Positions 3,922-44,279 of a stretch of DNA of 64,000 nucleotides are shown piece after piece. The DNA lies in NCBI GenBank assembly GCA_963754875.1, contig CAVWHO010000020.1, positions 175,374 through 239,373 of the forward strand, given 5' to 3'. The notes under the pieces are model-generated. The model was not told the DNA's origin. It searched no databases and saw only the letters and a list, made by a program, of their open reading frames with translations. The position numbers were made by a program, and so were the translations under genes. Every line of letters begins with the position of its first letter. Position 1 is the stretch's first letter. This DNA is from Nitrospirota bacterium. GTDB taxonomy: Bacteria > Nitrospirota > UBA9217.

Positions 3922-4060
3922 CCACCTTTTGCAGGCCGGCTATGACCTCCGCACGATCCAGGAACTGCTCGGGCACGCCGATATCCGGACGACGATGATC
4001 TACACCCACTGCGTGCCGAGCAAAACATTGAAAGAGATGAAGATCCCGTTGGATTTCTAG
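3866..4060 (+). pseudogene. second, diverged tyrosine recombinase C-terminal fragment in inverted orientation
   Basis: [28 protein letters not shown]...[14 protein letters not shown], about 70% identical to the minus-strand fragment. Confidence 0.65.
3878..3909. repeat. perfect 32-bp palindrome (tggcggctattccgca|tgcggaatagccgcca) at the centre of a ~190-bp imperfect inverted duplication of the integrase 3' end
   Basis: Arm-by-arm reverse complement verified base by base. The flanking ORFs encode near-identical peptides on opposite strands. Confidence 0.9.
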
Positions 4061-4513
4061 GAAGGGAACATACGACTGAAGCTTGTGAACCGCGATGGCG
4101 ACAGTTTATGCCGTGCCATGACAATAACAGGGAACAGGGTACTTTCGTGCAGAAAACGAATATGTGGTTCTCTGTGCGGGATAATGAGTAGTTGAATTTT
4201 ATCATGAATCGGATTATCATTGCTTACTATCATTCGTATCAGCATTTAACTGGAAAAACTTTTAATTGTGCATTATCAAAAACCATCAGTTAACGGCTCA
4301 CGTTTTGATCGATTTCATTTCATACTGCAATGCTGTTTACGCAATCCTTACGTTTTCTTTCATTAATGAAATATTCCTTTAAAGTTATTCGTCGTTTATG
4401 CCGATAAGTTAGATGAAGTGCGCGAGGTGCTTTTGCTCGAACAGGATGATCGGACGAGGCATTCAAGATGTCTGAATTCATTGTTTCTTTGCTCAAAAAA
4501 ACATCCTCTTCGG

Positions 4514-6368: not shown

Positions 6369-7733
6369 TTATGAGATCCCGAGTTTTTTCCTGAGTGTCA
6401 ACCTGTTGATGCCAAGCAGCCTGGCGGTCTCGGACTGGTTCTCCCGTGTATGAGACAGGAGATAGGCGAACACATGCCGGTCCACTTCGGTATGGACCTT
6501 GTCATAGATGTTTTTCTCCTTGTTGTCGAGCGCTTTTTTTACAAAGGGGACGAGTACGGCTGCAAGGGCGTCTGCATCGCCTGCCGGGGGCCTTGCCGTG
6601 GAATGCGAACCCAGGTCCCTCAGTTCCTGCGTAGTCAGGTAGTCTGTTTTGCAAAGGGCGATTGCCGACCGGAGGGTGTTTTCCAGCTCGCGAATGTTGC
6701 CCGGCCAGTCATAGGTGAGAAGCCGGTCCATGAAGGCCTTGGTCACTCCCTTGATCGGCTTCTGCGCCGTATGGGCATGGCGGTAGAACAGGCACTGGAC
6801 CAGCGGCGCGATGTCCTTCTTGCGTTCGCGAAGCGGCGGCACGTGGATCGATGCGACGCGGAGCCGGTGATAAAGGTCTTCCCGGAACTTTCCTTCGCGC
6901 ACCATGTCGGCAAGGTCGCGGTTCGTTGCCGAGATCACGCGTACGTTCACCTGTACCTCTTTCGTGCTGCCCACAGGATAAAATGTCTGGGTCTGAAGAA
7001 AGCGCAGGAGCTTTCCCTGGAGCTGCAGCGGAAGCTCTCCGATCTCGTCGAAGAACACGGAGCCTCCGTCGGCAGCTTTGAGCATGCCTTCTTTGGAGGC
7101 CACGGCGCCGGTGAATGCTCCGCGTTCATGGCCGAAGAGTTCCGATTCAAGCAAAGTGTCGGGCACGGCAGCTGAATTGATGACAACGAAGGGTTTGCCG
7201 AAGCGAAAAGAAAGCTGCGCAATCGCCTCGGCTACCAGTTCCTTTCCGGTGCCCGTCTCACCGGTGACGAGAACGGGGACCTCGACCTGAGCGATGCGCG
7301 CGATTTTTTCGCACAGGCTCATGACGAGCGTGGACCTGCCCACGATGACACACGTTGCGGCAGGCGCCAGCAGGTCCTTCGATATCGTTACGGTGTGCTC
7401 CATTTCCGTGGTGAGCCCCTGCAGCTCCGCCAGGAGCCGCTCGAACCGCTCCTTCCTGAGCGGCCTCCGCATGATTTCATAGGCGCCCCACGTGGCGGCC
7501 TCCATGACCGGACCGGTCCGTTCCTGGTCCGTGATAGCGATGACGAACGTCCGTTCGCTGTATCCCTTGATCACCTGGGCATCAATCGAATCGAGGTCCA
7601 CAAGAACGAAATATTCATCCCGGCCGGAGATCCCCGACTTACGGCCGGTCGTCAGCTTGTACCCTTTCGGCAGGATGGCGGAAACCTCCTGCTCCAGAGA
7701 CTGGTCTTTCGTCAACAGCAGCACTTTTTTCAT
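6369..7733 (-). CDS. sigma-54-dependent transcriptional regulator (degenerate receiver-like N-domain, AAA+ sigma-54 activator domain, Fis-type HTH)
   Basis: GETGTGKELVAEAIA Walker A, ESELFGHERGAFTGA (GAFTGA sigma-54 contact motif), C-terminal HTH. GGGAGG RBS present. Confidence 0.85.
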   Translation of the reverse strand: MKKVLLLTKDQSLEQEVSAILPKGYKLTTGRKSGISGRDEYFVLVDLDSIDAQVIKGYSERTFVIAITDQERTGPVMEAATWGAYEIMRRPLRKERFERLLAELQGLTTEMEHTVTISKDLLAPAATCVIVGRSTLVMSLCEKIARIAQVEVPVLVTGETGTGKELVAEAIAQLSFRFGKPFVVINSAAVPDTLLESELFGHERGAFTGAVASKEGMLKAADGGSVFFDEIGELPLQLQGKLLRFLQTQTFYPVGSTKEVQVNVRVISATNRDLADMVREGKFREDLYHRLRVASIHVPPLRERKKDIAPLVQCLFYRHAHTAQKPIKGVTKAFMDRLLTYDWPGNIRELENTLRSAIALCKTDYLTTQELRDLGSHSTARPPAGDADALAAVLVPFVKKALDNKEKNIYDKVHTEVDRHVFAYLLSHTRENQSETARLLGINRLTLRKKLGIS

Positions 7734-8072: not shown

Positions 8073-9014
8073 ATGTTTGGATGCAGAACCATTTTGGGGT
8101 TTGTTCTCGCGTGCATTATCGGCTTGACCGGATGCAATGGAAAAGAAGCGCCGCGAAAAATTAGTCTTGAAAAGCGCCAAGAGACGCCCCGTCAAATTGA
8201 TCTTCGGGAGCTGCATCTCCGCATCGCCGTCGGAGGCATGATCACCCCAAAGGCCGGGTACGGGTATTACCGGCAGTTTTTGGACTACATCGGCGAAAAG
8301 GTCGGCATGCAGGTGGATTTTGTGGACCGCGATAATTATGCGGAGATCAACAAGCTGGTCAATACCGGCAACGTTGATGTCGCCTTTGTCTGCGGCGGCC
8401 CTTATGTGATAGGGCATGATAAATTCGGCATGGAGCTCCTGGCAGCGCCTCAGGCCTACGGCAAGACTGTCTACTATTCCTATATCATCGTTAACAGAGA
8501 CAGTACCATAAGCGGGTTCGAAGGTTTGCGAGGAAAAAGCTTTGCCTTTACCGATCCTCTTTCCAACTCAGGCACGCTCGTGCCCACCTATATGCTTGCG
8601 CGGATGCATGAAACACCAAACACCTATTTCAGCAAAACCATCTTCACACAGACCCACGATAAATCAATCAAGGCTGTTGCGCAGGGAATCGTGGACGGTG
8701 CGTCGGTGGACAGCCTCATCTGGGAATATGAGAACCGCGCGGATCCGGAATTTACTTCCCGGACAAGAATCATTAAAAAGTCTCTCCCCTACGGCATCCC
8801 GCCCGTTGTCGTTCGTCCGGGTTTAGACCCCAAATTGAAGGAACAAATTCGTGTGGTCTTACTGAACGCCCATCATGATCCTAAAGGAAAGGCAATTCTG
8901 GCGGGCATGATGATCGATAAGTTCGTTCCTATCGGGGACAGCGCTTACGACTCCATCAGGGAAATGGATAAATGGATCGCGGACCATAGAGAAAAAGGAA
9001 ACAAAAAACCGTAA
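8073..9014 (+). CDS. PhnD/SsuA-like periplasmic substrate-binding lipoprotein
   Basis: Lipobox LTGC; resembles the phosphonate-binding-protein fold often paired with sensor proteins. Confidence 0.6.
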   Translation: MFGCRTILGFVLACIIGLTGCNGKEAPRKISLEKRQETPRQIDLRELHLRIAVGGMITPKAGYGYYRQFLDYIGEKVGMQVDFVDRDNYAEINKLVNTGNVDVAFVCGGPYVIGHDKFGMELLAAPQAYGKTVYYSYIIVNRDSTISGFEGLRGKSFAFTDPLSNSGTLVPTYMLARMHETPNTYFSKTIFTQTHDKSIKAVAQGIVDGASVDSLIWEYENRADPEFTSRTRIIKKSLPYGIPPVVVRPGLDPKLKEQIRVVLLNAHHDPKGKAILAGMMIDKFVPIGDSAYDSIREMDKWIADHREKGNKKP

Positions 9015-9019
9015 GCATT

Positions 9020-10354
9020 ATGCAATCACTTCGACTCAAGACAAAATTTTTTATCGGAACGATCAGCATCGTCGTGCTCCTTGGCCTGGCGATGATCCTG
9101 TTTGTCGAGATTGTCGTGTATAAACAGTTGTATGCCAATCTTGAAAAAAGGGGCATATTCATGGCCCGCAAGATCGCAACGGACAGCATTGACCCCATTT
9201 TGACGGAAAAGTTTTTTGAGCTCCAGATGCTGATCAAGGACCAGAAAAACGCGGAAGATGATATAGAATATATTTTCGTTCAGAATGCACGAGGCGACGT
9301 CCTTGCGCACACGTTTGAACAGGGGTTCCCTGAAGACCTGCGACAGTTGGATGGCACCGGCAACGGCCGTACCAACGAAATCCAGCGTCTCTCCACCGAG
9401 CGGGGCGTAATCCTCGATTTCCCTTCTCCACTGCTCAATGGTACGATCGGTCGGCTGCACTTGGGGCTCTCGGAAGGGCCTGTCAGGGCAGGTGTGAATA
9501 AAGTCGTGGTTCTGTTGATGTGGACCATCGTTGCTGTGCTGATCCTCGGCGGAGGATCGGCCGTGGTCCTTGCCAGGTCGATAACAAAGCCGGTCCACCT
9601 CCTTGCCGTTGCAGCCCAGTCCCTCGAGCACGGCAATCTTAACACCAGGGTTCCGGTCCGCACACAGGACGAGGTAGGACAGCTGGCAATGGCCTTCAAC
9701 AGGATGGCCGAGACCTTGATGTTTGTAAATGATGCTCTTAGTGCCGGTGAAAAAAAGCTACGGGATATCACGTCGCATCTGGCGGAAGGACTCTATGTGA
9801 TGGACTTGAACGGGAAGATCACGTTTATGAATCCGGAGGCTGCGAATCTTCTGGGACGGAGCATGGACGAACTGAATGAGGGCGGACATTTTCTCATTCA
9901 TAACCGAAAAGCCGATGGAACGCCGTTGCCGCTGGAAGAGTGCCGGATGCATAACGTCATCCGTACCGGGATACGATTCGTTTCGACAGAGGAAGTGTTT
10001 ACCCGAAAGGACGGTACGGTCTTTCCGATAGCCGTTGTCAGCAGTCCCCTTTTTGAAGAAGGGAAAATTGTGGGGTCCGTGACAGCTTTCCGGGACATCA
10101 GCAGGCAGAAAGAGCTGGAGCAGGACCGGGACCAGTTGATTCTCGCCTACCGGGATGCCCTTGAACGCGTCAAGACCTTGAAAGGATTCATTCCGATCTG
10201 TTCTTCCTGCAAAAAAATCCGCAACGACAGCGGATTCTGGAGCCAGATCGAAGCATATATCAGCGAGCATTCAGATGTGGAGTTCAGTCACGGCATTTGT
10301 CCGGATTGTGCGCAAAAGCTTTATCCCGAATTTTACAAAGAAAAAGATCCTTAG
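9020..10354 (+). CDS. membrane signalling protein with TM, HAMP, PAS and a C-terminal 4-Cys module, and no kinase or other known output domain
   Basis: Two TM segments, HAMP (VHLLAVAAQSLEHGNLNTRV...), PAS (ITSHLAEGLYVMDLNGKITFMN...), ending IPICSSCKKIRNDSGFWSQIEAYISEHSDVEFSHGICPDCAQK. Starts 6 nt after the upstream stop (translational coupling). Confidence 0.7.
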   Translation: MQSLRLKTKFFIGTISIVVLLGLAMILFVEIVVYKQLYANLEKRGIFMARKIATDSIDPILTEKFFELQMLIKDQKNAEDDIEYIFVQNARGDVLAHTFEQGFPEDLRQLDGTGNGRTNEIQRLSTERGVILDFPSPLLNGTIGRLHLGLSEGPVRAGVNKVVVLLMWTIVAVLILGGGSAVVLARSITKPVHLLAVAAQSLEHGNLNTRVPVRTQDEVGQLAMAFNRMAETLMFVNDALSAGEKKLRDITSHLAEGLYVMDLNGKITFMNPEAANLLGRSMDELNEGGHFLIHNRKADGTPLPLEECRMHNVIRTGIRFVSTEEVFTRKDGTVFPIAVVSSPLFEEGKIVGSVTAFRDISRQKELEQDRDQLILAYRDALERVKTLKGFIPICSSCKKIRNDSGFWSQIEAYISEHSDVEFSHGICPDCAQKLYPEFYKEKDP

Positions 10355-12781: not shown

Positions 12782-12980
12782 AAGGCCGTACAACCTTGTT
12801 CATCCACTTCAACGAGTTTTTTCCTTATCGAACACCGTTTCCCTCTCGAAGCCGCCATCCGACTGACTGTGCGCGGGTATTCATTGTATATATAAAAAAT
12901 AAACAAATTGTATAATAAATTAACAGATCTGAACGCTCCCCTTTGGTAAACCCTCTGAATTTGCCGTTGTTTTCGCTGGC

Positions 12981-13003
12981 ATGCACGTTGCTATAACGTG
13001 CAT
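12981..13003. promoter_or_regulatory. perfect 9-bp-arm palindrome (atgcacgtt-gctat-aacgtgcat), candidate operator ~115 nt upstream of the sulfite-reductase-like gene
   Basis: Read directly. It lies just downstream of a TGTATAAT-like -10 element at ~12905. Confidence 0.4.
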
Positions 13004-13116
13004 AGCATCAATGCCGCGATGTGCGAAAGCATGAAGTGGGCCCCTTCCTCCCCTTAGGCAGTTCTTGCTTCGTGCCTTCACAACGCTGCGGCATACTTCT
13101 CTGAGAGGTGACAAAA

Positions 13117-14261
13117 TGAGCGAAGTTGCTGCGCAGGTTTCCGTCGACGAACTGAAACGGGTCGGGATCATCGGCCAGAAACAGAAGGATTTTTATCTCA
13201 TTCGACTTCGGACCGTGGGCGGCGGAATGACCGCCGAGGAACTGAACACGGTCTCGGAGGTCTCGCGGAAATACGGGAACGGGCAGGTGCACCTCACGAC
13301 ACGCCAGGCAATCGAGATCCACAACATCCATGTCGAGAATCTTCAGGCCGCCCGTGAGGAAATAGAGGCGTGTGGGATCGTGCTTGGCGTATGCGGGCCG
13401 CGCGGCAGGGGGATCGTGGCCTGCCCCGGAAACGCAACATGCACCTCGGGTCTGATCGAAACCAGGGAACTGGCCGCAGAGTTCGACGAGGCCTATCTGC
13501 GCATGCCTGCTCCGCACAAGTTCAAAATCGGCATTTCCGGTTGCCCGAACAATTGTTCTAAACCTATTGAGAACGATGTCGGCATTATGGGCGGCGTACT
13601 GCCGCGTTGGCACAAGGACACCTGCACTGCCTGCCAGCTCTGCGTAAACATTTGTCCAACCAGGGCGATCGAGCAAAAAGGCGGGGATTTTGTCCTCGAC
13701 AGCGGCAAGTGCCTCCTGTGCGGGCTTTGCATCAGTAACTGCCCGTCGTCGACATGGACTGCAGAGAAGACCGGTTACACGCTCTATCTCGGCGGGACCA
13801 TGGGCAAGAAACCCCGCCTCGGGACCAGGGCAAAAGTATTAATTGAAACAAAGGAAGAGCTTGTAGCTGCGGTCCGCAAGGCGTTCGACTTTTACGTTGC
13901 CCACGGCAGGAAAAAAGAGCGTTTCGGCCACACCCTCGACAGGATCGGAGTGGACCAGGCTTTTGCCCAAATCTTTTCAGACAAGACTGAAAAGCCGGTG
14001 TCAGCACAGGATTCTACGGCAGCGTCACCAATAAAAAGGAACCTCCTCGACCTGAGAGGCGTCTGCTGTCCCATGAATTTCGTGAAGGCAAAACTTGCAA
14101 TGGACAAGATCAGGAACGGCGAAACGATTGAGTTTTACCTTGACGATGGGGAGCCGATCGTAAATGTCACCCGCAGTCTCAAAGATGAGGGACATCAGGT
14201 GCTGAGTGTAGTGCCGCAGGACGCATATTTCAAAGTACTGGTCGAGAAGAAGATCTCCTGA
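13117..14261 (+). CDS. sulfite/nitrite-reductase-family protein (ferredoxin-like half domain, siroheme-type 4Fe-4S site and 2x[4Fe-4S] ferredoxin insert; AsrC/DsrA-like) fused to a C-terminal TusA-like domain
   Basis: CPGNATCTSG...GCPNNC siroheme/FeS motifs. CTACQLCVNICP and CLLCGLCISNCP are ferredoxin motifs. C-terminal LDLRGVCCPMNFVKAKLAMDKIRNGETIEFYLDD is a TusA/SirA-like fold. RBS GAGAGGTG is before the ATG at 13117. Confidence 0.7.
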
Positions 14262-15870: not shown

Positions 15871-17232
15871 TCACTCGCTTTCTAACCCATACTTCTTGAG
15901 CTTTCTCCAGAGGGAGACGCGATCTATGCCCAGTATCTGAGCGGCGAGGGTCTTGTTGCCGCCGACCTCGTTCAGCACCCACTTGATATAGGCTTCTTCC
16001 TGTTCATCGAGCGACGGAATTTTGCCTTCCTTTTTTCGGAACGTTTTGATGCTGAGTTCCCGCAGGTCCTCGGGCAGGTGGCCGGTCTCGATCGCTCCGC
16101 CGTTCGCGAGCGCCACGCCCCGCTCCATGATGTTCTCTAGTTCCCGTACATTGCCGGGAAAGTCGTAGTGCATGAGCAGGGCGATCACTTCTTCCGCGAT
16201 TTCGGTGACCTCTTTCTTCATAAGCACCGCATATTTTTTGAGGAAGTAGTAGGAAAGGAGGGGGATATCGTCCTTGCGTTCGACGAGCGGCGGGATGCGA
16301 AGCGAAACGACGTTCAGCCTGAAGTACAGGTCCTGACGGAATGAACCGCTTTTCATCGAATCGTGAATGTCCCTGTTCGTTGCCGCTACGAACCGTACGT
16401 CTACCTTGAGCGGGTCAATGCCCCCGACGCGCAGCACTTCCTTCTCCTGGATCACGCGCAGCAGTTTTACCTGCATGGACTGCGGCATCTCGGTCACTTC
16501 GTCCATGAACAGGGTGCCGCCCGACGCCATCTCGATCAGTCCCTTTTTCATGGCGCTCGCGCCGGTGAAGGCGCCCTTTTCGTGCCCGAACAGCTCGTTT
16601 GACAACAGCTCCTCGGTGAAGGCCCCGCAGTTGATGGCAAAGAAGGGGCCTTCCATGCGCTTGCTGTTAAGGTGGATGTATCGCGCGAAGAGTTCTTTGC
16701 CGGTTCCACTTTCTCCGGTGATCAGCACATTGCAGTCCGTGGGCGCGATTTGGCGCGCGGTCTCAAGCAGCTTCTGCATCGACGGGTCCTGGGTGATGAT
16801 CTTGACCTTGCCCTGGTAGCTTTCGAGTTGCTCGCGGAGGTGACGGTTCTCGGTCTTGAGCCTCACCTTATGCACGGCCTCCGACACGACCTTTCGCACT
16901 TCCTCCAGTTTAAACGGTTTCGCAATGTAGTAGAACGCCCCATCCTTCATGGTCTCAACGGCAGAGTCGAGCGTTGCATAACCCGTGATCATGACGACTT
17001 CCGTGTCCGGGTAAAGCTCGCGGGTCTTTTTTAGGATCTGCATGCCGTCTACTTTTTCCATACGGAGGTCTGTGAGCACGACGTCGAACTGCCGGTCTTC
17101 GAGAAGTTTAAGGGCGTTTGTTCCGCTCTGCGTGGCCGTAACGTCGTATCCTTCTTTTTTCATCACGTGCTCAAGGTTCCTGAGGGCTATCCGTTCGTCG
17201 TCGATGATGAGCAACTTACCTGAATCGGGCAT
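15871..17232 (-). CDS. sigma-54-dependent two-component response regulator (NtrC family: REC-AAA+-HTH)
   Basis: Receiver domain with DDERIAL...VLTDLRMEKVDG. GESGTGKELFARYIH, GAFTGA, C-terminal Fis HTH. Confidence 0.9.
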   Translation of the reverse strand: MPDSGKLLIIDDERIALRNLEHVMKKEGYDVTATQSGTNALKLLEDRQFDVVLTDLRMEKVDGMQILKKTRELYPDTEVVMITGYATLDSAVETMKDGAFYYIAKPFKLEEVRKVVSEAVHKVRLKTENRHLREQLESYQGKVKIITQDPSMQKLLETARQIAPTDCNVLITGESGTGKELFARYIHLNSKRMEGPFFAINCGAFTEELLSNELFGHEKGAFTGASAMKKGLIEMASGGTLFMDEVTEMPQSMQVKLLRVIQEKEVLRVGGIDPLKVDVRFVAATNRDIHDSMKSGSFRQDLYFRLNVVSLRIPPLVERKDDIPLLSYYFLKKYAVLMKKEVTEIAEEVIALLMHYDFPGNVRELENIMERGVALANGGAIETGHLPEDLRELSIKTFRKKEGKIPSLDEQEEAYIKWVLNEVGGNKTLAAQILGIDRVSLWRKLKKYGLESE

Positions 17233-18957: not shown

Positions 18958-20955
18958 CTAAATCAGCACCGCATGTACGGCGTCCATCACGTTGTCGACC
19001 AGGCGAAGCTCGATGTCCTTTTTTACTTCTTCATCCAGTTCATCCACGTCGTCGCGGTTGCGGGCGGGCACGATCATGGTCTTGACCTTTGCTCGCTTGG
19101 CTGCCAGGACCTTTTCCCTGATGCCGCCCACCGGAAGTACCCGTCCCGTGAGAGTGATCTCGCCGGTCACGGCGATGTCCTTTCGCGCCGGGCGCCCGGT
19201 GAGCAGCGAGGCAAGGGCAAGGAGGATGGTGATGCCGGCCGACGGGCCGTCTTTCTGGATCGCGCCGGAAGGCACATGGACGTGGATGTCTTTCTGCTCA
19301 AAAAAATTGTCAGGGATGCCGAAGGCCTCGGCATTGCTCCTGATATAGGATAGGGCCGCCTGCGCCGACTCACGCATGACGTCGCCGAGGGATCCGGTGA
19401 TGATCAACTCTTTCGTGCCGTTCATTTTTGCTGCTTCCACGAAAATGATGTCTCCGCCTGTTTCGGTCCGCACGAGTCCTGTTGCGACGCCGATGCGGTC
19501 TTGCTCCTCGACCACGTCGAAGTGGTACTTCCGTTTGCCGAGATACGTCTCGACCGCGGCCGGCGTAATCACGACGGTTTCCGGCAGACCATGCCGGTCG
19601 ACAGAGGATTTGGCGATCTTTCTGCAGATGGTAGCGATCGTGCGCTCGAGGTTCCGGATGCCTGCTTCCCGGGTGTACTCCCGGATGATTTTTGCTACGG
19701 CGTCACCGGTAAAAACGACGTCGTCCGGAGACAGACCTTTCTCGCGGATCTGTTTCGGACAGAGGAACCGTGAAGCGATAAGCGCTTTTTCCTCCTCTGT
19801 GTAACCCGAGAACTCGATTACTTCCATGCGGTCCCGAAGCGGGGCCGGGACGGTTTCAAGCACGTTCGCGGTCAGGATAAACATGACGCCTGAAAGGTCG
19901 AAGGGAGCGTCCAGATAGTGGTCCACGAACGCGCGGTTCTGCTCCGGATCGAGCACTTCGAGCAGCGCCGATGCAGGGTCGCCCTTGAAGTCACGTCCGA
20001 TCTTGTCAAGTTCGTCGAGCATGATCACCGGGTTGGCCGATTCGACGCGGCGGATCTCCTCTATCACCCTGCCGGGCTTCGCCCCGACGTACGTGCGGCG
20101 GTGCCCCCGGATGTCTGCTTCGTCCTTGAGGCCGCCGAGGGCGATGCGGGTGAACTTTCTGCCGAGGGCCCGCGCAATGGAACGGCCGAGGGACGTCTTG
20201 CCTGTACCCGGAGGACCGGCGAAACAGAGGACCGAGCCCTTCGTGTTTGCCCGCACTGTCTTTGTATCCAATGCCTTCTTGATGGTGTCACGGACTTCAT
20301 CGAGCTTAAAGGGCTTCGCAATATAGTGGAAAGCCCCTTTTTGCATTGCCTCGATGGCGGAGGGGACCGTGGCAAAGCCGGTTATCATGACGACCCGGGC
20401 GTCCGGGTACCGGACCTTGATCCGGTCCAGGAGGTCCATGCCGTCGATTTTCCCCATGCGAAGGTCGGTCAGCACTACATCGAACTCGTCCATGTCGAGC
20501 TCTTTGAGCGCATCTTCGCCGCCTGCTACGGCAACCACGTCATACTCTTCCTTCGTAAGCACGTGAGCAAGGTTCTTTCGCGCGATCTCTTCATCATCGA
20601 CGATCAGGATTCGTGCCTTTTTGCTCATCCTGAGCACCTTCACGGCCAGGTGCTCGAGGACCCGCTCCTTGATCGTGCTGAGGCCGTAGTGGTTTTCGTT
20701 CAGGATACGCTCGGCACGGGAGAGGTCGAGATTGTCTTCGGTCTTTTTGTTCCACGGCAGACAGGCGAGGTAGTCGATGTAGGTCACACCGATGGTGTAT
20801 TCGGCAGACGATGGGCTGATCTTTGCCAGGATCGAGAGCTCCTGATCAGCGATCTTCTCCACCGGCCCGGGCATGCCGGCGCGAGATATTTTCTGGCGCA
20901 GCTCGGCAATGATAAGTTCGTGCTCGTTGTCGTCCGATTTTTTAAAAAATTTCAT
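18958..20955 (-). CDS. Lon-family ATP-dependent protease lacking the N-terminal substrate domain and carrying an inserted response-regulator receiver domain (linker-REC-AAA+-protease)
   Basis: YIDYLACLPWNKKTEDNLDLSRAERILNENHYGLSTIKERVLEHLAV is the Lon pre-AAA helical linker. ARILIVDDEEIARKNL...VLTDLRMGKIDGMDLL...AKPFKL is a CheY-like REC. GPPGTGKTSLGRSIA...GHRRTYVGAKPGR is Lon AAA+. DGPSAGITIL...GGIREKVLAAKRA supplies the Ser-Lys dyad. The ORF track begins at 20988; the ATG at 20955 has GAAGG upstream. Confidence 0.8.
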   Translation of the reverse strand: MKFFKKSDDNEHELIIAELRQKISRAGMPGPVEKIADQELSILAKISPSSAEYTIGVTYIDYLACLPWNKKTEDNLDLSRAERILNENHYGLSTIKERVLEHLAVKVLRMSKKARILIVDDEEIARKNLAHVLTKEEYDVVAVAGGEDALKELDMDEFDVVLTDLRMGKIDGMDLLDRIKVRYPDARVVMITGFATVPSAIEAMQKGAFHYIAKPFKLDEVRDTIKKALDTKTVRANTKGSVLCFAGPPGTGKTSLGRSIARALGRKFTRIALGGLKDEADIRGHRRTYVGAKPGRVIEEIRRVESANPVIMLDELDKIGRDFKGDPASALLEVLDPEQNRAFVDHYLDAPFDLSGVMFILTANVLETVPAPLRDRMEVIEFSGYTEEEKALIASRFLCPKQIREKGLSPDDVVFTGDAVAKIIREYTREAGIRNLERTIATICRKIAKSSVDRHGLPETVVITPAAVETYLGKRKYHFDVVEEQDRIGVATGLVRTETGGDIIFVEAAKMNGTKELIITGSLGDVMRESAQAALSYIRSNAEAFGIPDNFFEQKDIHVHVPSGAIQKDGPSAGITILLALASLLTGRPARKDIAVTGEITLTGRVLPVGGIREKVLAAKRAKVKTMIVPARNRDDVDELDEEVKKDIELRLVDNVMDAVHAVLI

Positions 20956-21229
20956 GTGCCTTCGTAAAAAACAATAAAGTGGTTGCATTTTACAACGTTC
21001 AGATTATCAATGCAACACTCAAAAAATCTTTTTTATTCAACGCGTAGCATGACTTTAGAGATAAAGCATTGCATTCTAAAACAATGGTGGACGAAAGTAC
21101 GATTTTTTATATTTATGTATTGTATCATTTTTTCAATGCATTATGCCGAGAAAAGGTTTTGGCACGAAGGTTGTAATTAGGAATAGTGAAAGAGCACAAG
21201 AAAACATCACGGGAAAGGAGGAACAGAGT

Positions 21230-37947: not shown

Positions 37948-38479
37948 GCGGTCTTCTTGTATGACTCTCCAAAATATGATGCGTTCAAATAACGTCATGA
38001 TACAAACGAACCCAGTTCTGGATAAATTCCATGCTTCCATTTCAGTATCTCCTGGCGTGAACGAATCAGGGGAAAACTGTGACAGAATGCCAAGTGGGGA
38101 TGGGCCTCGACAATAAGCGCAATCCCCGATACCTGCGTCAGGGAAGAGGTCTTGAAAAACATCTCCAAAAGATAGCAGCCCGGGATTCGGATCGCGCGGT
38201 TGGGTTCTTTTACCTGGAACTCTGTACTCTGAACGCTGTACTCTGTACTGCAGTAAGCTCCTACCCCGAAAATACCCCATTTTTCCCCTTTATCTCCTTT
38301 CGAAAATTCATTATACTTTACACAATCTTTCCAGCAGCACGTTCTAGCCTTTTTTACCCTGCATGCAGTATCAATGCAGAGATGATAGCAGCTCATTTCT
38401 GCTCGTAACTGAAAAACCAAGTCTCGCCGTTATTGCGTTAACAACACAACCGACAGCAGCCAAACAGGAGAGATATATC

Positions 38480-41400
38480 ATGAATGTCAAAACAGTCTTG
38501 GGAGTGATTCTGGGATTTTGCATCACCCTGGGGCAGGCAGGCGCGGAAGAAGCGTCAATCGATATGTTCAGCCCTCAGGGAGAAGTGAAGAACGTACGCC
38601 AAGTGACAGCCCGATTCACTGAACAGATGGTACCCTTCGGAGAGCCACGGCTTACGGAGCCTTTTGACATCACCTGCCCGGGAAAGGGGCAAGGCAGGTG
38701 GGTTGACGGCAGAAACTGGGCGTACGACTTCGATCGCGATCTTCCCGCAGGGGTCGTCTGTGAATTCACCATCAAACCTGATCTCAAAACACTTGCCGGC
38801 AAAAAGATCGGCGGGCAGCAGAGGTTTACTTTTACCACGGGAGGGCCGGCAGTGAAGCGATCCAACCCGGCCGAAGGATGGCAAATTGACGAGGAACAGG
38901 CGTTCGTGCTGGCACTCGATGCAGAAGCGAAAGAAGAATCAATGCTCCAGAACGCTTACTGCTCCGTGGACGGGATCGCGGAGAGGATCGGGATCAAAAT
39001 CCTGAAGGGCGACGACCGTGAAGAAATACTCAAGAACGAGGGGCGGCATTTCAGCTTCGGAATTTCCCGCGAAGAAGCAAAGGGCTTTCCGCTTGTGGTC
39101 GTTCAATGCAAGCAGCGTTTCCCCAGCAACGCAACGATGCGACTTGTCTGGGGCAAGGGCATCGAATCCCTGAACGGCGTGAAAACGTCGGCTGATCAGG
39201 TGCTGTCCTACAAGGTCCGCGAGCCGTTCAGGGCAACCTTCAGCTGTGACCGCGAGAATGAAAAGGCCGACTGCATTCCTATTCTGCCTTTTCAAATATA
39301 TTTTACGAGCGCGGTCTCCGGTGAATACGCAGAAAAGATCGTCATGCGGGGCCCGAACAATACCATCTTCAAACCTGTGCAGTCCAGGTCTGGAGAGGAG
39401 GGCGAGGGCACTGCAAAAAAGCCGGATTTCGTGAACCGCCTTGTGTTTGCTGCGCCGCTGCCGCCTCTTGCCTCGTTCACCATCGAGTTCCCGAAGGATC
39501 TTAAGGATGATGCGGGTAGGTCTCTGTCGAACGCGGACAAGTTCCCGCTTACGGTGAAGACAGCGGACTATCCGCCGCTTGCCAAATTTGCTGCGGACTT
39601 CGGCATTGTCGAACGGGCAGATCCGTTCCTTCCGGTGACCCTGCGTAACATCGAGGCCGAAGTTAAGGCGCATGTGTTCGATGCACGAGATGCCAAGAAC
39701 ATCGCTGAGAAAGCTGCAGATGGCGTCTCCGGCACTATCAAGAATTTGATTTCCGGCCAAGTCACGGGCAAGGTCAGGACCTTCGCTGCTGATACAGACA
39801 TCATGATCTGGCTGGACCGTGTGGAAGGCAAGTGGGAACGACCTGGACAAACCCTGTTTCCTGGTACCGAGGCGGAAACCAAGGCAACGGAGCTGACTCT
39901 GCCCAAACCCAATGGGCCCAAGGCATTCGAAGTGATCGGCATCCCGCTCAAACAACCGGGGTTCTACGTTGTCGAATTGGAGAGCCGTATCCTCGGTGAA
40001 TCGCTGTTAGCAGAACCAAGACCCTACTATGCTTCCGCGGCCGCGCTGGTGACGAACCTTTCAGCGCATTTTAAACGCGGCCGTGAATCGTCCCTGGTCT
40101 GGGTCACGACGCTCGATAAAGCGGAGCCGGTGAAGGACGCCCAGGTCACTATCCGTGACTGCGGGGGCACGGTCCATTGGGAAGGAAAGACCGATGCATC
40201 CGGCGTCGCGTACGTGAATAAGGAACTGCCGCAGGAGAAAAGCTGCAGGAACTCCCGGACGTGGGGGTACTACATTTTTGCTCGAACGTCCGATGACATG
40301 ACCTTTGTGCGTTCTGATTGGAACAAGGGCATCGAATCCTGGCGTTTCAATCTGCCGGAGGCGTCTTACGAGGGGCCGGTGATCGCCCACACAATCCTCG
40401 ACCGCAGCCTCTTGCGCGCGGGCGAAACAATCTCCATGAAGCATCTCATCCGAAAACACACGACCTCGGGCTTCTCACAGGTGAAGGATTTGCCCAATGC
40501 CGTCGTGATCCAGCACCAGGGCAGCGATCAACGATACGAGTTTCCCCTGGCATGGGACCAGAGCGGCATCGCCGAGACGACCTGGCAGATCCCGAAAGAC
40601 GCAAAGCTCGGGACTTACACCATTACTCTGCTTAAGAAGGCGAGTGCTAAGACGAAGCAGAGGACATCAGTGGGAGGTTATGAAGAGGGCGACGAGGAGT
40701 ATTTCAGCGCCGATGGCTGGCAATCCGGCACCTTCCGGGTGGAGGAATTCCGGGTGCCGCTCATGAAAGGGATCATCCAGCCGCCCAAAGAGCCGCTCGT
40801 GAATGCGCGTGAGGCAACGGTTGATCTCTTCGTAAAGTATTTGGCCGGAGGAGGTGCCTCCAATGCTTCGGTCAAGTTCAGGACACTGACTTCACCGAAA
40901 CAGGTGAGCTTCGACCAGTATGAGGATTTTCTGTTTGCCAACGGAAAGGTCAAGGAAGGGCTCACCAGCCGCGAGCAAGAACGGAATTATGAGGAAGAAT
41001 ATGAGGGGGGTGAAGGCGAAGCTGAGGAGGTGTCGCCCCGCACAAGAAGGATTGCGGTCCTTAAGGAGGCAAGGACCAGAGAACTTATGTTGGATATGAC
41101 CGGCGCTGTAAGAACGACGATCATTGATCTGCCGAAGGCTGCGGTTCCGCAGGACATCCAGGCTGAGATGGAGTTCAGGGACCCGAACGGAGAGGTGCAG
41201 ACCGTGTCTTCACGCATTCCTCTCTGGCCCTCGGCCATTCTCGTGGGCATCAAACCCGACTCCTGGGTCGCATCGAAAGAGTCCTTCAAATTCCATGTTC
41301 TTGTCGTTGACCTGGCAGGCAAGCCGCTGTCGAACCGCCCGGTAACAGCCGACCTCTTCGAACGAAAGACCTATTCTCATCGCAAGAGGCTGATCGGAGG

Positions 41401-44279
41401 CTTCTATGCCTATGAGCATACAACCGAAACAAAAAAGGTAACGCAGGTCTGTGAAGGGAAGACTGATTCCAAAGGTCTTCTTATCTGCGAGTCGAAGTCT
41501 CCCGTGTCCGGGAACGTGATCATCCAGGCGCGGGCAACAGATGATGCCGGCAACGAATCAATCAGCCACCGGGACATCTGGATAGCGGACAAGGGCGAGT
41601 GGTGGTTCGATGTGTCCGACAACGACCGCATCGACCTGCTGCCGGAGCAGAGACACTATGAACCGGGCGAGACAGCGCGATTCCAGGTCCGGATGCCATT
41701 CCGCGAGGCAACGGCCTTGGTGACCGTGGAACGAGAGGGAGTCATGGAGACCTTTGTCAGACACCTTTCGGGAAAGATGCCCGTAGTAGAAGTTCCTGTC
41801 AAAGGAAACTATGCACCGAATGTATTCGTTTCCGTACTAGTCGTGCGCGGACGGGTCGGAGACATAAAACCTACGGCATTGGTGGATCTGGGAAGACCTG
41901 CATACAAACTCGGCATCGCCGAGATCAACGTGGGCTGGCGCGCGCATGAGCTCAGGGTTTTCTTAACCCCGGAAAAGCAGGTCTACCGCATTCGCGACAA
42001 AGCAAAGGTCTTCATAAAAGTCCGTCAGAGGGACAGAAATAATCCCTGGCCCCCGAAAAGCACGGAACTGGCAATTGCTGTCGTGGATGAGGGACTTCTG
42101 GAACTCATGCCGAACAAAAGCTGGAAGCTTCTCGATGCCATGATGGGACGCCGGGGCTATGAGGTGCATACGTCCACTGCCCAGATGCAGGTCGTGGGCA
42201 AGCGGCATTACGGGCTCAAGGCATTCCCGCCGGGCGGCGGAGGCGGCAGGACGGTAACGCGCGAAATGTTCGACACGCTGCTTTTATGGAAAGGCAGGGT
42301 CAAGCTGAACGAGAACGGAGAGGCAACTGTCGATATTCCTCTGAACGACGCACTCACCAGTTTCAGGATCGCTGCGGTCGCGAACGCCGAATCAGGACTC
42401 TTCGGCAGCGGCGAAACCTCGATCCGCACGACCCAGGACCTGATGCTCCTTTCCGGTCTGCCGCCGGTCCTCCGTGAAGGGGATAAATATAAAGCAGGGT
42501 TTACGGTCCGGAATGCCTCGGACCACAAGATGGATGTCGACATCACAGCATCGGTAAGCGGCGCATCGATCAAGCCTGAATTGAAAACAGAAAGCCTCGG
42601 CCCCGGCGAGGCTCGGGAGATTTTCTGGGACGCAACAGCGCCGCTCAATATCGACTCGGTCCTCTGGGAAGTTTCTGCGACAGAGAAGAATGGCGGAGCA
42701 GCAGACAGGCTCAAGATCAAGCAGAAGATCGTCGAAGCAGTACAGGCTCGCGTGTTCCAGGCAACTATCACTCAGGTGGACAAGGTCCATACGCTCACAA
42801 TCGAAAAGCCGAAAGACGCGATGCCGGGCAAGGGTGGCGTGAACGTCTCGTTTAGGAAGAAGTTGTCGAACGGCCTTGGCGGTGTAACGTGGTACATGAA
42901 GAACTATCCTTACACGTGCATGGAGCAGAAGACTTCCCGTGCGATTGCTCTCCGGGATGAAGCGCTCTGGAAAGCGGTGATAGCGGAACTACCAGCGCAT
43001 CTCGACAGTGACGGCCTGGTCAAGTACTTCCCGACCTGTCTTGTGGGGAGCGATACCCTTACCGCATATATGCTATCGATTTCAAACGAGGCAGGCTGGG
43101 CAATACCCGACGATCTCCAGAATAAAATGATTGAAGGCCTGCGCGGGTTCATCGAGGGAAAGGTCATCCGCTGGTCTGCGCTTCCCACTGCCGATGTCTC
43201 GATCAGGAAGATGGCGGCGCTTGAGGCCCTTTCCCGCTATAACAAAGCAGAGTCGGGTCTCCTGAGCTCGATCATGCTCGAACCGAACCTGTGGCCGACG
43301 TCAGCGGTGATCGACTGGCTGAATGTGCTCGTGCGCGTGCCGGACATGCCGGACCGCGAAAAGCGCATCAACGAGACTGAGCAGATCATCCGCTCGCGCC
43401 TCAACTTCCAGGGGACCACGATGGGCTTCTCAACGGAGAAGACCGACTACTTCTGGTGGCTCATGGTATCGACAGACGTGAATGCAGTCCGCACCGTGCT
43501 CACCTTCCTCGACAGGGACCAGTGGAAGGACGACATTCCGCGGCTTGTGCGCGGCGCCATCAACAGGCAGTACCACGGCGCGTGGGGCACGACCACTGCA
43601 AATGCCTGGGGCGTTCTGGCCATGGAAAAATTCTCGAGGAAATTCGAGAATGTTCCGGTTACGGGCAAAACATCTGCCAAAATTGGGGACAAAGCAAAAA
43701 GCGTTGACTGGCAGGCTGCCGCAGAAGGAGCGGCATTGATGTTCAACTGGCCGGCCAAAGAGACCGATCTCACGGTAAACCACCAGGGCACGGGCAAGCC
43801 CTGGGCCACGATCCAGAGTATCGCAGCGATCCCGCTTGAAGGAGCCGTTCTCGAGCGGGTATACGATCAAGAAGACAGTGACGCCCGTAGAGCAGAAACA
43901 GCAGGGTGTCTGGTCGCGCGGCGACGTAGCGCGCGTCAAGCTTGAGCTCGATTCCCAGGCGGACATGACCTGGGTAGTGGTGAACGACCCGATTCCTGCG
44001 GGATCGACGATCCTCGGAAGCGGTCTGGGCGGAGATTCAAAAATGCTCACGAGCAATGAACAGAAAGCCGGTTGGGCCTGGCCGGTCTTTACGGAACGCA
44101 CTTTCACGGCATACCGCGCCTATTATGAATATGTCGCAAAAGGCAAGTGGTCACTGGAATACACCGTGCGTTTGAACACGAGCGGCGCCTTCCAACTTCC
44201 CGAGACCCGCGTGGAGGCGCTCTATGCCCCGGAAATGTTCGGGGAGATGCCGAATGCAGGAATGACGATCAATCCTTAA
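38480..44279 (+). CDS. bacterial alpha-2-macroglobulin family protein (~1930 aa) with an apparent +1 frame change near 43836..43845
   Basis: Signal peptide after an AGGAGA RBS. Thioester motif YTCMEQ (CxEQ). The protein continues as ...LSISNEAGW... typical of the A2M domains. The C-terminal domain continues in another frame (ORF 43836..44279, ...YTIKKTVTPVEQ...). Confidence 0.8.

What the first reader, a model, noticed from the sequence alone, without database searches (positions are those of the whole stretch)
8073..10354. PhnD-like binding lipoprotein coupled to a HAMP-PAS protein ending in a 4-Cys module, with no kinase or GGDEF output
The 444-aa membrane protein has TM-periplasmic-TM-HAMP-PAS, then stops with ...IPICSSCKKIRNDSGFWSQIEAYISEHSDVEFSHGICPDCAQK (CxxC...CxxC, zinc-ribbon-like) and no catalytic output domain. 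It is translationally coupled to a PhnD-type substrate-binding lipoprotein and is divergent from a sigma-54 EBP with a degenerate receiver. Signal output must occur through the Cys module, either by protein-protein contact or by metal or redox chemistry, in an architecture different from classical two-component or chemoreceptor systems.
Basis: partly seen in the sequence, partly recalled or inferred. Interest (0 to 1): 0.5.

Follow-up and report, generated by a model that had tools for sequence, protein, structure and literature searches.

The report
Kinase-less sensor with four-cysteine tail
A membrane sensor, paired with an arsenic-sensor-like binding protein, ends in a small four-cysteine module instead of a kinase; that module belongs to a very large, widespread family that the libraries and papers I could search do not describe, and it sits where signalling proteins normally carry their output domain.

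Summary
Genes 8073-9014 and 9020-10354 encode a lipoprotein binding protein and a TM-periplasmic-TM-HAMP-PAS sensor of 444 aa that ends in CxxC-29-CxxC. It has no kinase, GGDEF or MCP domain and no frameshift; more than 60 orthologues end at the same point.

Three corrections:
- The binding protein is closest to the arsenic-oxyanion sensors ArrX and AioX, not transport PhnD. All seven AioX pocket residues are conserved.
- The tail is not a local oddity. A profile finds about 24,000 protein clusters in many phyla.
  - It is essentially always C-terminal.
  - It follows a coiled coil of fixed register after PAS, REC, HAMP, GAF or MASE6 domains.
  - No known output domain was seen with it.
  - It has no Pfam, NCBIfam, PDB or literature match.
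- The sigma-54 activator is a neighbour only in close relatives. Its own conserved partners are sulfite-reductase-like/TusA genes carrying a sigma-54 promoter.

Best reading: a three-component-type sensor whose kinase core was replaced by a probably zinc-stabilised dimeric output module that acts by protein contact. The mechanism is inferred, not shown. This is an interesting lead on an undescribed output domain.

The parts
8073..9014 (+). Periplasmic sensory binding lipoprotein of the AioX/ArxX/ArrX subfamily (313 aa). The lipobox LTGC is at nt 8124-8135.
   Evidence: PF12974 at E 6.6e-63. Nearest solved structures are ArrX 6x6b (E 3.5e-56) and AioX (about 1e-44), against PtxB/PhnD at 1e-20 to 1e-12. 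All seven AioX pocket residues (Y88, C106, Y131, S161, S163, H192, D210) are conserved in the HMMER alignment. It is 35-41% identical to annotated aioX genes.
9020..10354 (+). Membrane sensor of 444 aa: TM1, periplasmic domain, TM2, HAMP, PAS, coiled coil, Cys4 tail.
   Evidence: ORF; Pfam domains; full-length AF2 model with mean pLDDT 81; more than 100 full-length orthologues.
9047..9118 (+). TM helix 1 (about residues 10-33).
   Evidence: Hydrophobic stretch FIGTISIVVLLGLAMILFVEIVV; a continuous helix at 6-61 in the model.
9119..9505 (+). Periplasmic sCache_3_2-like alpha/beta domain (about residues 34-162), the presumed docking site for the binding protein.
   Evidence: Weak sCache_3_2 hit at E 1.4e-4, below the cut-off in the window protein, but E 1.5e-9 in orthologue L003. 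Helix plus five strands in the model. 30% identity over residues 1-251 to a Bacillus plasmid histidine kinase that follows an SBP of the same type.
9506..9577 (+). TM helix 2 (about residues 163-186).
   Evidence: Hydrophobic stretch VVVLLMWTIVAVLILGGGSAVVLA; helix 153-203 in the model.
9566..9718 (+). HAMP domain (residues 183-233).
   Evidence: PF00672 at E 5.2e-18.
9758..10120 (+). PAS domain (residues 247-367). H290, H294 and C308 are invariant among orthologues.
   Evidence: PAS_9 at E 5e-12 and TIGR00229 at E 1.6e-16; invariant columns in A7.
10100..10189 (+). Coiled-coil (signalling-helix-type) linker, residues 361-390.
   Evidence: Single helix 361-390 in the model. Heptad a/d pattern of conserved hydrophobic residues up to 3 residues before the first Cys. 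The distance from the PAS 'DIT.RK' Asp to the first Cys is 35 residues here (D359 to C394) and in 119 of 122 unrelated family members.
10190..10330 (+). C-terminal Cys4 module (residues 391-437): PIC-SS-C-KKIRNDSGFW...H417...H424-GI-C-PD-C...YP.
   Evidence: Sequence. Family profile finds 24,369 hits. C, C, R, G, W, C, C are 100% conserved and H 99% in 326 distinct tails. No Pfam, NCBIfam or PDB match.
6369..7733 (-). Divergent sigma-54 activator with a pseudo-receiver. It is a neighbour and probably not a dedicated partner.
   Evidence: Sigma54_activat at E 6e-66 with no Response_reg hit. Alignment to a bona fide receiver. Adjacent to the cassette only in L082. Orthologues of its N-terminal domain lie next to DsrE and NIR_SIR-TusA genes.
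12977..12992 (+). Sigma-54 promoter-like site TGGCATGCACGTTGCT upstream of the sulfite-reductase-like/TusA gene (ATG at 13117). It is the likely target of the activator and is context only.
   Evidence: One mismatch to TGGCAC-N5-TTGCW. A near-identical site lies upstream of the orthologous gene in L090, and a perfect site in L091; sequence. Window-wide, matches to the pattern are no more frequent than chance, so the case rests on conserved position.

Best explanation
This is a two-gene sensory cassette.

Input (inferred): an AioX/ArrX-type periplasmic lipoprotein binds an oxyanion. The pocket is arsenite/arsenate-like, but the ligand is unknown. The loaded protein docks on the sCache-like periplasmic domain of the membrane sensor, as proposed for AioX-AioS.

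Transmission (inferred): the signal passes through TM2, HAMP and PAS into a register-fixed coiled coil.

Output: where related sensors carry the DHp/ATPase kinase core, this one carries a module of about 47 residues with two CxxC pairs, most likely holding one structural Zn per chain.
- Shown: the module belongs to a very large, highly conserved family. It is essentially always C-terminal and is attached to many kinds of input domains.
- Shown: it behaves in sequence data like a generic output domain.
- Inferred: helix rotation or scissoring changes how the two modules of the dimer sit against each other. That switches binding of a cytoplasmic partner encoded elsewhere in the genome. This is a non-phosphorelay, protein-contact output shared by all paralogues.
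For: Output position:
- The homologue P0370 (51% identity through PAS) continues into HisKA-HATPase-REC at the point where the window protein has the linker and tail.
- A Bacillus plasmid carries SBP + HK + RR. Its SBP is 34% identical to the window SBP, and its HK is 30% identical to the window sensor over TM1, the periplasmic domain, TM2 and HAMP.

Generality:
- 24,369 representatives at E<=1e-3 and 20,284 at E<=1e-10.
- More than 591 confirmed genomic stretches across Nitrospirota, Desulfobacterota, Spirochaetota, Verrucomicrobiota, Acidobacteriota, Chloroflexota, Bacteroidota and others.

C-terminal position:
- The first Cys lies 45-76 residues from the stop codon in all 83 occurrences found in 80 loci.
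- A median of 8 residues follows the module.

Domain partners are all input or transmitter domains:
- Sample 1 (81 proteins): PAS 32, REC 20, HAMP 8, plus HisKA_7TM, Tll0287-like, VUPS, MASE3 and dCache.
- Sample 2 (139 proteins): PAS 81, MASE6 18, REC 11, GAF 6, HAMP 5.
- No HATPase, GGDEF, EAL or MCPsignal appears among the listed families.
- 0 of 75 have a HATPase core by my own HMM; 4 of 14 REC-module genes have a kinase gene within two genes.

Rigid coupling:
- PAS-to-Cys distance is 35 residues in 119 of 122.
- REC-to-Cys distances are 41, 48 or 55, which are heptad steps.
- The heptad a/d pattern runs to position -3.

Shared target rather than a private partner:
- Surface residues are near-invariant across paralogues and phyla.
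- No conserved neighbouring gene family was found in 80 loci.

The median net charge of -2 argues against nucleic-acid binding.

The SBP-sensor pair is conserved in all eight other orthologous loci examined.
Against: - No partner has been identified, and no experiment bears on metal content or binding.
- The fold is not robustly predicted. The tail-only model has pLDDT 82, but the same residues score 42-64 in the full-length model and take a different secondary structure.
- Only the 25 most frequent Pfam families per sample were visible, so rare fusions to catalytic domains cannot be excluded.
- The samples are top-scoring hits and are not random.
- A variable stripe on the putative helix (positions 10, 14, 18, 21, 22, 25) could encode specificity for different targets. 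That would fit DNA binding or private partners.
- The SBP pocket points to arsenic oxyanions, yet no arsenic-metabolism genes lie nearby.
Confidence: 0.45

Rival explanations
1. The Cys4 module is a small zinc-finger nucleic-acid-binding domain. On this reading the family consists of one-component regulators and response regulators that bind DNA or RNA directly, and the window sensor is a membrane-tethered transcription or RNA regulator.
For: - Two CxxC pairs with a conserved KK.R and a conserved KK.
- 10-25% of members are REC-tail proteins, the commonest layout of DNA-binding response regulators.
- Some REC-tail genes sit next to kinase genes.
- Variable neighbourhoods are normal for transcription factors.
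- A variable helical stripe could read bases.
- Galperin et al. predicted nucleic-acid binding for HalOD2, an archaeal output domain with two CXXC motifs (PMC5847659).
Against: - Net charge of the module is negative: median -2, and -3 in the window protein.
- Linkers are rigid and heptad-phased rather than flexible.
- Many members place the module about 20-25 residues from a multi-pass membrane domain.
- There is no similarity to any DNA-binding zinc-finger family in Pfam or PDB.
Confidence: 0.2
2. The module is a redox or metal sensor: a thiol/zinc switch, a rubredoxin-like Fe(Cys)4 site or an Fe-S site. It would be a second input that gates the protein, not an output.
For: - Four invariant Cys and two near-invariant His.
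- The CxxC-29-CPxC spacing equals that of rubredoxin. This comparison is from my own knowledge and was not tested.
- The family is abundant in anaerobic Desulfobacterota and Nitrospirota.
- There is a marginal match to the Rad50 zinc hook, where CxxC pairs from two chains share one metal (E 0.0097).
Against: - REC-tail, GAF-tail and PAS-tail proteins would then have no output at all.
- The family also occurs in lineages I take to be largely aerobic, from my own knowledge: Verrucomicrobiota, Gemmatimonadaceae, Bryobacteraceae, Caldilineaceae.
- No rubredoxin or Fe-S family match.
- Register-fixed coiled-coil coupling to upstream sensor domains is the signature of effector domains.
Confidence: 0.13
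3. In this lineage the tail talks directly to the pseudo-receiver of the divergently encoded sigma-54 activator. That would make an AioX-AioS-AioR-like three-component system without phosphotransfer, controlling the sigma-54 promoter of the sulfite-reductase-like/TusA gene.
For: - The canonical XSR systems pair this SBP subfamily with a kinase and a sigma-54 activator (PMC5908839; NT-26 locus).
- Here the kinase is missing and the activator's receiver is degenerate, which is a coherent pair of losses.
- The arrangement is kept in the 75%-identical relative L082.
- A sigma-54-type promoter lies 5 kb away on the same side.
Against: - The activator is absent next to the cassette in seven loci of more distant orthologues (L002, L003, L004, L083-L086).
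- Orthologues of the activator's N-terminal domain (62-75% identity) lie next to DsrE and NIR_SIR-TusA genes with no SBP-sensor pair between them.
- The tail is shared by thousands of proteins with no such neighbour.
Confidence: 0.1
4. The tail is only a zinc-stabilised dimerisation cap that replaces the DHp bundle. The protein would be a kinase-less decoy that titrates the binding protein, or that heterodimerises with kinase-bearing paralogues to tune them.
For: - Kinase-bearing paralogues with the same input half exist (P0370).
- The module sits at the end of a coiled coil, like the Rad50 hook.
- It is very small.
Against: - A mere cap would not need near-invariant polar surface residues across phyla: K4, R7, D9, W13, E17, Y19, H23, H30.
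- It would not be expected after REC, GAF and MASE6 domains in about 24,000 clusters.
- No kinase paralogue is adjacent in the orthologous loci.
Confidence: 0.08

Closest known systems
AioX-AioS-AioR, ArxXSR and ArrXSR three-component arsenic-sensing systems (Badilla et al. 2018, PMC5908839)
   Same: - A periplasmic binding protein of the same subfamily. ArrX and AioX are the nearest solved structures (E 3.5e-56 and about 1e-44), and all seven pocket residues are conserved.
- It is encoded immediately upstream of a two-TM, HAMP-containing membrane sensor.
- In the window, a sigma-54 activator lies nearby.
   Different: - The sensor has no DHp or ATPase core and ends in the Cys4 module.
- It resembles AioS only in the HAMP region.
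- The activator has a pseudo-receiver and is not a conserved neighbour.
- No aio, arx or arr genes are nearby.
SBP-coupled sensor histidine kinases with the same input half (Bacillus sp. DX3.1 plasmid phnD-HK-RR; metagenomic P0370)
   Same: - Homologous binding protein.
- Homologous TM1, periplasmic domain, TM2 and HAMP, and PAS in P0370 (30% and 51% identity).
- Same gene order.
   Different: They continue into HisKA/HATPase (plus REC, or a separate response regulator) at the point where the window protein has the coiled coil and Cys4 module.
Sensors with small non-enzymatic outputs that act by protein contact: RpBphP1 two-helix output sensor domain binding PpsR2 (PMC6899989); Cache_heme-HAMP receptor binding a Ser/Thr kinase (bioRxiv 10.64898/2026.05.25.727664)
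   Same: A sensor with no catalytic output whose C-terminal helical or small domain is proposed to signal by binding another protein (abstracts seen).
   Different: - Those domains are unrelated in sequence and have no Cys4 motif.
- Their partners are known and encoded nearby.
- Here the partner is unknown and there is no conserved neighbour.
HalOD2, an archaeal response-regulator output domain with two CXXC motifs (Galperin et al. 2018, PMC5847659)
   Same: A predicted helical segment followed by a C-terminal pair of CXXC motifs, attached to a receiver domain, with function unknown.
   Different: HalOD2 is restricted to a few halobacteria and its CXXC spacing is 20-25 residues, against 29 here. 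Homology was not tested because no HalOD2 sequence was available to me.
Rad50 zinc hook (PDB 1l8d, 6zff)
   Same: A coiled coil running into K-G-x-x-P-x-C-x-x-C. It is the best PDB profile match (E 0.0097). In Rad50, two chains share one Zn (my own knowledge).
   Different: The match is marginal and mostly coiled coil. Rad50 has a single CxxC at a hairpin apex, whereas this module has two CxxC pairs and about 30 more conserved residues at a chain terminus.
Chemoreceptor (MCP) signalling tip
   Same: By analogy only, from my own knowledge: many differently sensing receptors share one extremely conserved cytoplasmic module because all dock on the same downstream proteins.
   Different: No MCPsignal domain is present, and the module is about 47 residues with Cys4 rather than a long helical hairpin.

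Membership tests
AioX/ArxX/ArrX sensory periplasmic binding proteins | Phosphonate-bd (PF12974) fold, closer to ArrX/AioX than to the transport proteins PhnD/PtxB/HtxB | tested here: met
   PF12974 at E 6.6e-63. ArrX E 3.5e-56 and AioX about 1e-44, against PtxB 2.7e-20 and PhnD 1.1e-12.
AioX/ArxX/ArrX sensory periplasmic binding proteins | Conserved binding pocket Y88, C106, Y131, S161, S163, H192, D210 (AioX numbering), including the Cys that PhnD lacks | tested here: met
   The pocket list comes from PMC5908839. In the HMMER alignment to AioX the window protein has NYAE, FVCGG, TVYYS, LSNSG, QTHDK and SVDS at these positions.
AioX/ArxX/ArrX sensory periplasmic binding proteins | Encoded directly upstream of its membrane sensor, with no ABC permease or ATPase genes alongside | tested here: met
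   5-nt gap to the sensor gene. The pair is conserved in 8 other loci. No transporter genes are adjacent.
AioX/ArxX/ArrX sensory periplasmic binding proteins | Located beside the aio, arx or arr arsenic bioenergetic genes it regulates | tested here: not met
   No molybdoenzyme or ars genes were seen in the window ORFs scanned or in the orthologous loci.
AioX/ArxX/ArrX sensory periplasmic binding proteins | Binds arsenite or arsenate | not testable with these tools
   Requires ITC or crystallography.
Two-component sensor histidine kinase (AioS-type) | DHp/HisKA domain with a phospho-accepting His, plus a HATPase_c domain | tested here: not met
   No HisKA or HATPase_c hit in Pfam. NCBIfam kinase models align only to residues up to about 381, all far below their cut-offs. 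Only 77 residues remain after the PAS domain.
Two-component sensor histidine kinase (AioS-type) | Two-TM periplasmic sensor domain followed by HAMP (and PAS) transmitter domains | tested here: met
   30% identity over residues 1-251 to a bona fide kinase.
Methyl-accepting chemotaxis protein | MCPsignal cytoplasmic hairpin domain | tested here: not met
   No MCPsignal hit; only the HAMP region aligns to the CtpM model.
Known C4 zinc-ribbon, zinc-finger or rubredoxin families | Two CxxC pairs able to form one tetrahedral site | tested here: met
   C394, C397, C427 and C430 are invariant in 68 orthologues and in 326 unrelated tails.
Known C4 zinc-ribbon, zinc-finger or rubredoxin families | Significant sequence or structure match to a curated family or a solved structure | tested here: not met
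   - Pfam: best E 0.01, noise.
- NCBIfam: 0 hits.
- PDB phmmer and profile: best E 0.0097, the Rad50 hook, mostly coiled coil.
- Foldseek against PDB: no hit at E<=0.001.
Known C4 zinc-ribbon, zinc-finger or rubredoxin families | Bound metal (Zn or Fe) | not testable with these tools
   Requires ICP-MS or spectroscopy.
Uncurated C-terminal Cys4 output-module family (defined here) | Motif G-x-x-P-I-C-x2-C-K-K-I-R-D-D-x-G-x-W ... H ... F-S-H-G-I-C-P-x-C ... Y-P within about 75 residues of the C-terminus | tested here: met
   The window tail matches all invariant positions, with one conservative difference (N for D at +8, as in 20% of members). The first Cys is 51 residues from the stop codon.
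Uncurated C-terminal Cys4 output-module family (defined here) | Joined to the preceding PAS domain by a heptad-phased helix of fixed length (35 residues from the DIT.RK Asp to the first Cys) | tested here: met
   D359 to C394 is 35 residues. The family-wide figure is 119 of 122.
NtrC-type response regulator (the neighbouring activator) | Receiver domain with an acidic pocket (DD), a phospho-Asp, T/S and K | tested here: not met
   No Response_reg hit. The alignment shows DD changed to TK, a shortened loop after the Asp and K changed to R. The AAA+ and HTH_8 parts are intact.

The most novel reading that the evidence does not exclude
The Cys4 tail is a previously undescribed, major class of bacterial signal-output domain. 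Tens of thousands of sensors with PAS, REC, HAMP, GAF, MASE6 or 7TM inputs, across many phyla, would converge through one near-invariant zinc module on a common, still unknown cellular hub or chemistry. That would be a signalling route parallel to phosphorelay, c-di-GMP and chemotaxis. The window cassette would be an AioXSR-type oxyanion sensor rewired into that route.
Probability: 0.3. Interest if true: 0.85.

Novelty: new variant of a known kind. Interest (0 to 1): 0.62.

Why it matters
If the tail is a true output domain, a large share of sensors now annotated only as 'PAS domain S-box protein' or 'response regulator' use an output nobody has characterised. These include many in sulfate reducers, Nitrospirota, spirochaetes and Verrucomicrobia. 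Regulatory maps of these organisms would be missing a whole channel.

The window cassette is a convenient entry point for three reasons:
- Its input half has a well-studied relative, AioX/ArrX with solved structures.
- A kinase-bearing homologue with the same input half exists for domain-swap experiments.
- The fixed 35-residue linker gives a clear handle for register mutants.

It also shows that the AioX-type binding proteins are used outside arsenic gene clusters.

Tried and rejected
Searches for a known identity of the tail, all negative:
- Pfam and NCBIfam scans of the tail alone at E<=10 gave noise or nothing.
- PDB sequence and profile searches gave only a marginal Rad50-hook hit and an insignificant PerR hit, so I dropped the idea of a Fur-family dimerisation-domain relationship.
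- The afdb50 fold library was unavailable.
- Literature searches for the motif strings found nothing relevant. Keyword searches on output domains, zinc ribbons, signalling helices, MASE6 and Tll0287 found no description of this module. The papers I opened did not mention it.

Other lines that led nowhere or were rejected:
- Conserved-neighbour analysis of 80 loci gave a largest non-self cluster of 6 loci, ABC ATPases.
- A window-wide sigma-54 promoter scan found no more matches than chance and none in the two intergenic regions flanking the cassette. Sigma-70 and terminator scans were uninformative.
- An HNH or His-Me nuclease reading was rejected by comparing motifs by eye and by the lack of a Pfam hit.
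- The frameshift or hidden-kinase idea was rejected.
- The plasmid search with the tail found only an IS-disrupted GAF-tail remnant.
- Cluster names were generic.
- The full-length AF2 model did not reproduce the tail fold of the tail-only model, so I make no fold assignment.


Full report
**1. Observation**

The two ORFs are present as described: 8073-9014 (313 aa) and 9020-10354 (444 aa) on the + strand.
- The first hits Phosphonate-bd PF12974 at E 6.6e-63 and begins with a lipobox (LTGC).
- The second has HAMP (183-233) and PAS (247-367) domains, and a weak sCache_3_2 match (35-162) between two hydrophobic helices.
- A full-length AlphaFold2 model (mean pLDDT 81) gives TM1, an alpha/beta periplasmic domain, TM2, HAMP, PAS, and then one long helix at 361-390.
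- No kinase, GGDEF, EAL or MCP domain is detected.

The genes are 5 nt apart. That makes them operonic, but true translational coupling is not shown.

The protein is not truncated. Over 100 homologues of about 444 aa (43-88% identity) have the same Pfam architecture. In an alignment of 68 of them the four Cys are conserved and the proteins end at the same point. The next gene starts 266 nt downstream.

**2. Input half**

The binding protein is not a generic PhnD.
- Its nearest solved relatives are the arsenate sensor ArrX (E 3.5e-56) and the arsenite sensor AioX (about 1e-44). PtxB, HtxB and PhnD are far weaker, at 1e-20 to 1e-12.
- Badilla et al. (PMC5908839) define the AioX/ArxX/ArrX pocket as Y88, C106, Y131, S161, S163, H192 and D210. 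All seven are conserved in the HMMER alignment.
- It is 35-41% identical to annotated aioX genes.

In the canonical systems this protein signals to the kinase AioS and the sigma-54 activator AioR.

Kinase-bearing counterparts of the window sensor exist.
- On a Bacillus plasmid a sensor kinase follows an SBP that is 34% identical to the window SBP. It is 30% identical to the window sensor over TM1, the periplasmic domain, TM2 and HAMP, and a response regulator follows it.
- Metagenomic P0370 is 51% identical through the PAS domain and then continues into HisKA-HATPase-REC.

So the Cys tail sits exactly where relatives carry the kinase core.

No arsenic-metabolism genes are near the cassette in the window or in orthologous loci. 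The ligand is therefore open.

**3. The tail**

*Size and spread of the family.*
- The 76-residue tail retrieves 195 proteins at 55-78% identity.
- A profile of 46 of them finds 24,369 representatives of 50%-identity clusters at E<=1e-3, and 20,284 at E<=1e-10.
They cover Nitrospirota, Desulfobacterota, Spirochaetota, Verrucomicrobiota, Acidobacteriota, Chloroflexota, Bacteroidota/Ignavibacteria, Gemmatimonadota and others.

*Position in the protein.*
- In all 83 occurrences found in the 80 loci kept, the first Cys lies 45-76 residues from the stop codon. Host proteins range from 53 to 1172 aa.
- Exceptions among the top hits are tandem head-to-tail duplications of whole units.

*Domains it accompanies.*
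- Sample of 81 proteins: PAS 32, REC 20, HAMP 8, plus HisKA_7TM, Tll0287-like, VUPS, MASE3 and dCache.
- Sample of 139 proteins: PAS 81, MASE6 18, REC 11, GAF 6, HAMP 5, PocR 2.
- All of these are input or transmitter domains.
- No known output domain appears among the listed families. My own HMM finds a HATPase core in 0 of 75.
- Caveat: only the 25 commonest families per sample were displayed.

*Linker.*
- The distance from the PAS 'DIT.RK' Asp to the first Cys is 35 residues in 119 of 122 non-orthologous members, and in the window protein.
- From the REC 'KP' Lys it is 41, 48 or 55 residues, which are heptad steps, in 11 sequences.
- Conserved hydrophobic residues follow an a/d heptad pattern up to three residues before the first Cys.

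*Conservation.* In 326 distinct tails, P-2, C0, C3, R7, G11, W13, C33 and C36 are about 100% conserved. H30 is 99%, K4 and D9 98%, E17 97%, Y19 96% and H23 90%.

*No known identity.*
- No Pfam or NCBIfam model matches the tail.
- No PDB sequence matches beyond a marginal Rad50 zinc-hook hit at E 0.0097.
- The tail-only model (pLDDT 82, beta-alpha-alpha-beta-alpha) is not reproduced in the full-length model (pLDDT 42-64). I assign no fold.
- Source annotations name these proteins only by their N-terminal domains.

**4. Context**

The SBP-sensor pair is conserved in all eight other orthologous loci examined: L002, L003, L004 and L082-L086. In L002 and L004 the tail follows the HAMP domain directly, with no PAS.

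The divergent sigma-54 activator and the acetolactate-synthase-type gene are adjacent only in the 75%-identical relative L082.

The activator's N-terminal domain is a pseudo-receiver: DD changed to TK and K changed to R. Orthologues of that domain (62-75% identity) lie divergent to DsrE and NIR_SIR-Fer4-TusA genes in L090 and L091.

A sigma-54-type promoter, TGGCATGCACGTTGCT, lies at window 12977-12992. That is about 125 nt upstream of the ATG at 13117 of the window's NIR_SIR-TusA gene. A near-identical site is found in L090 and a perfect one in L091.

The activator therefore belongs primarily to that sulfur-related unit. Its adjacency to the cassette is lineage-specific.

Across 80 unrelated tail-bearing loci no neighbouring gene family recurs.

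**5. Mechanism**

Shown:
- The tail occupies the output position.
- It is a generic, terminal module joined by a register-fixed coiled coil to many input types.
- Its surface is conserved across paralogues.
- It has no conserved neighbour.
- Its net charge is negative, median -2.

Inferred:
- The loaded binding protein docks on the periplasmic domain, by analogy with the model proposed for AioX-AioS.
- Helical signals reposition the two tail modules of the dimer.
- The modules, each probably holding one structural Zn, gain or lose affinity for a partner encoded elsewhere and shared by all paralogues.

I give this 0.45. The rivals are:

| Rival | Confidence |
|---|---|
| Nucleic-acid binding | 0.20 |
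| Redox or metal input | 0.13 |
| Direct contact with the neighbouring pseudo-receiver activator | 0.10 |
| Passive dimerisation cap or decoy | 0.08 |

**6. Comparison with what is known**

The input half is a member of the AioX/ArrX sensory binding-protein subfamily by sequence and pocket, but not by genomic association.

The sensor fails the defining tests for a histidine kinase and for an MCP.

The tail meets the CxxC...CxxC criterion of zinc ribbons but matches no curated family. The nearest concepts are:
- non-enzymatic protein-contact outputs: the RpBphP1 HOS domain (PMC6899989) and a Cache_heme-HAMP receptor (bioRxiv 10.64898/2026.05.25.727664);
- HalOD2 (PMC5847659);
- the Rad50 hook.

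**7. Novelty and caveats**

The cassette is a new variant of the SBP-sensor(-regulator) kind.

The tail family may be a new class of output domain. I cannot exclude that InterPro, CDD or paywalled literature already names it. My samples are top-scoring hits rather than random draws.

Noticed in passing
window 18958-20988 (-): A Lon-type protease (AAA, Lon_lid, Lon_C) carries a response-regulator receiver domain at residues 127-236. This would be a phosphorylation-controlled Lon.
   Followed up: no
window 13065-14261 (+), likely start ATG 13117; promoter-like site 12977-12992: A small sulfite/nitrite-reductase-like protein (NIR_SIR_ferr, NIR_SIR, 2x Fer4) is fused to a C-terminal TusA domain. 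It is preceded by a sigma-54-type promoter that is conserved in L090 and L091, where a DsrE gene and the pseudo-receiver activator are adjacent.
   Followed up: partly
window 9887-9945 (sensor residues 290-308): The PAS domain has invariant H290, H294 and C308 across 68 orthologues, and the same residues appear in the kinase-bearing homologue P0370. This could be a cofactor or metal site.
   Followed up: no
proteins P0121-P0130 and others flagged '2 stretches': Some proteins are head-to-tail duplications of a whole unit, such as REC-tail-REC-tail or TM-tail-TM-tail. They could be real tandem fusions or read-through of tandem paralogues.
   Followed up: partly
L049 2244-4439, 4618-6228 and 9522-9683; L075 5101-6231 and 6104-7345: Several tail-bearing genes cluster in one locus. 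Two loci (L030, L054) come from the same MAG. The family is multi-copy per genome, as GGDEF proteins are.
   Followed up: no
L087 (Dongshaea marina plasmid NZ_CP028898.1), match at 4001-4138: An unannotated remnant of the Cys4 tail lies downstream of an IS21 transposase that appears to have split a GAF-domain gene.
   Followed up: no
tail residues 400-418 (window 10217-10273): The segment IRxDxGxWxxIExYxxxHS resembles the 'IRRDDGSWEVIEGYRAQHS' segment near the N-terminus of glutamate dehydrogenases (E about 0.2-0.5, not significant). If meaningful, this part of the tail may be a hairpin rather than the helix AF2 drew.
   Followed up: no
window 15871-17232 (-): A second sigma-54 activator, this one with a canonical receiver domain, lies 1.6 kb beyond the sulfite-reductase-like/TusA gene. 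Which activator drives the 12977 promoter is open.
   Followed up: no
window 38363-43945 and 44405-46492 (+): A bacterial alpha-2-macroglobulin is followed by a PBP1C-type penicillin-binding protein. From my own knowledge this is the known paired arrangement.
   Followed up: no
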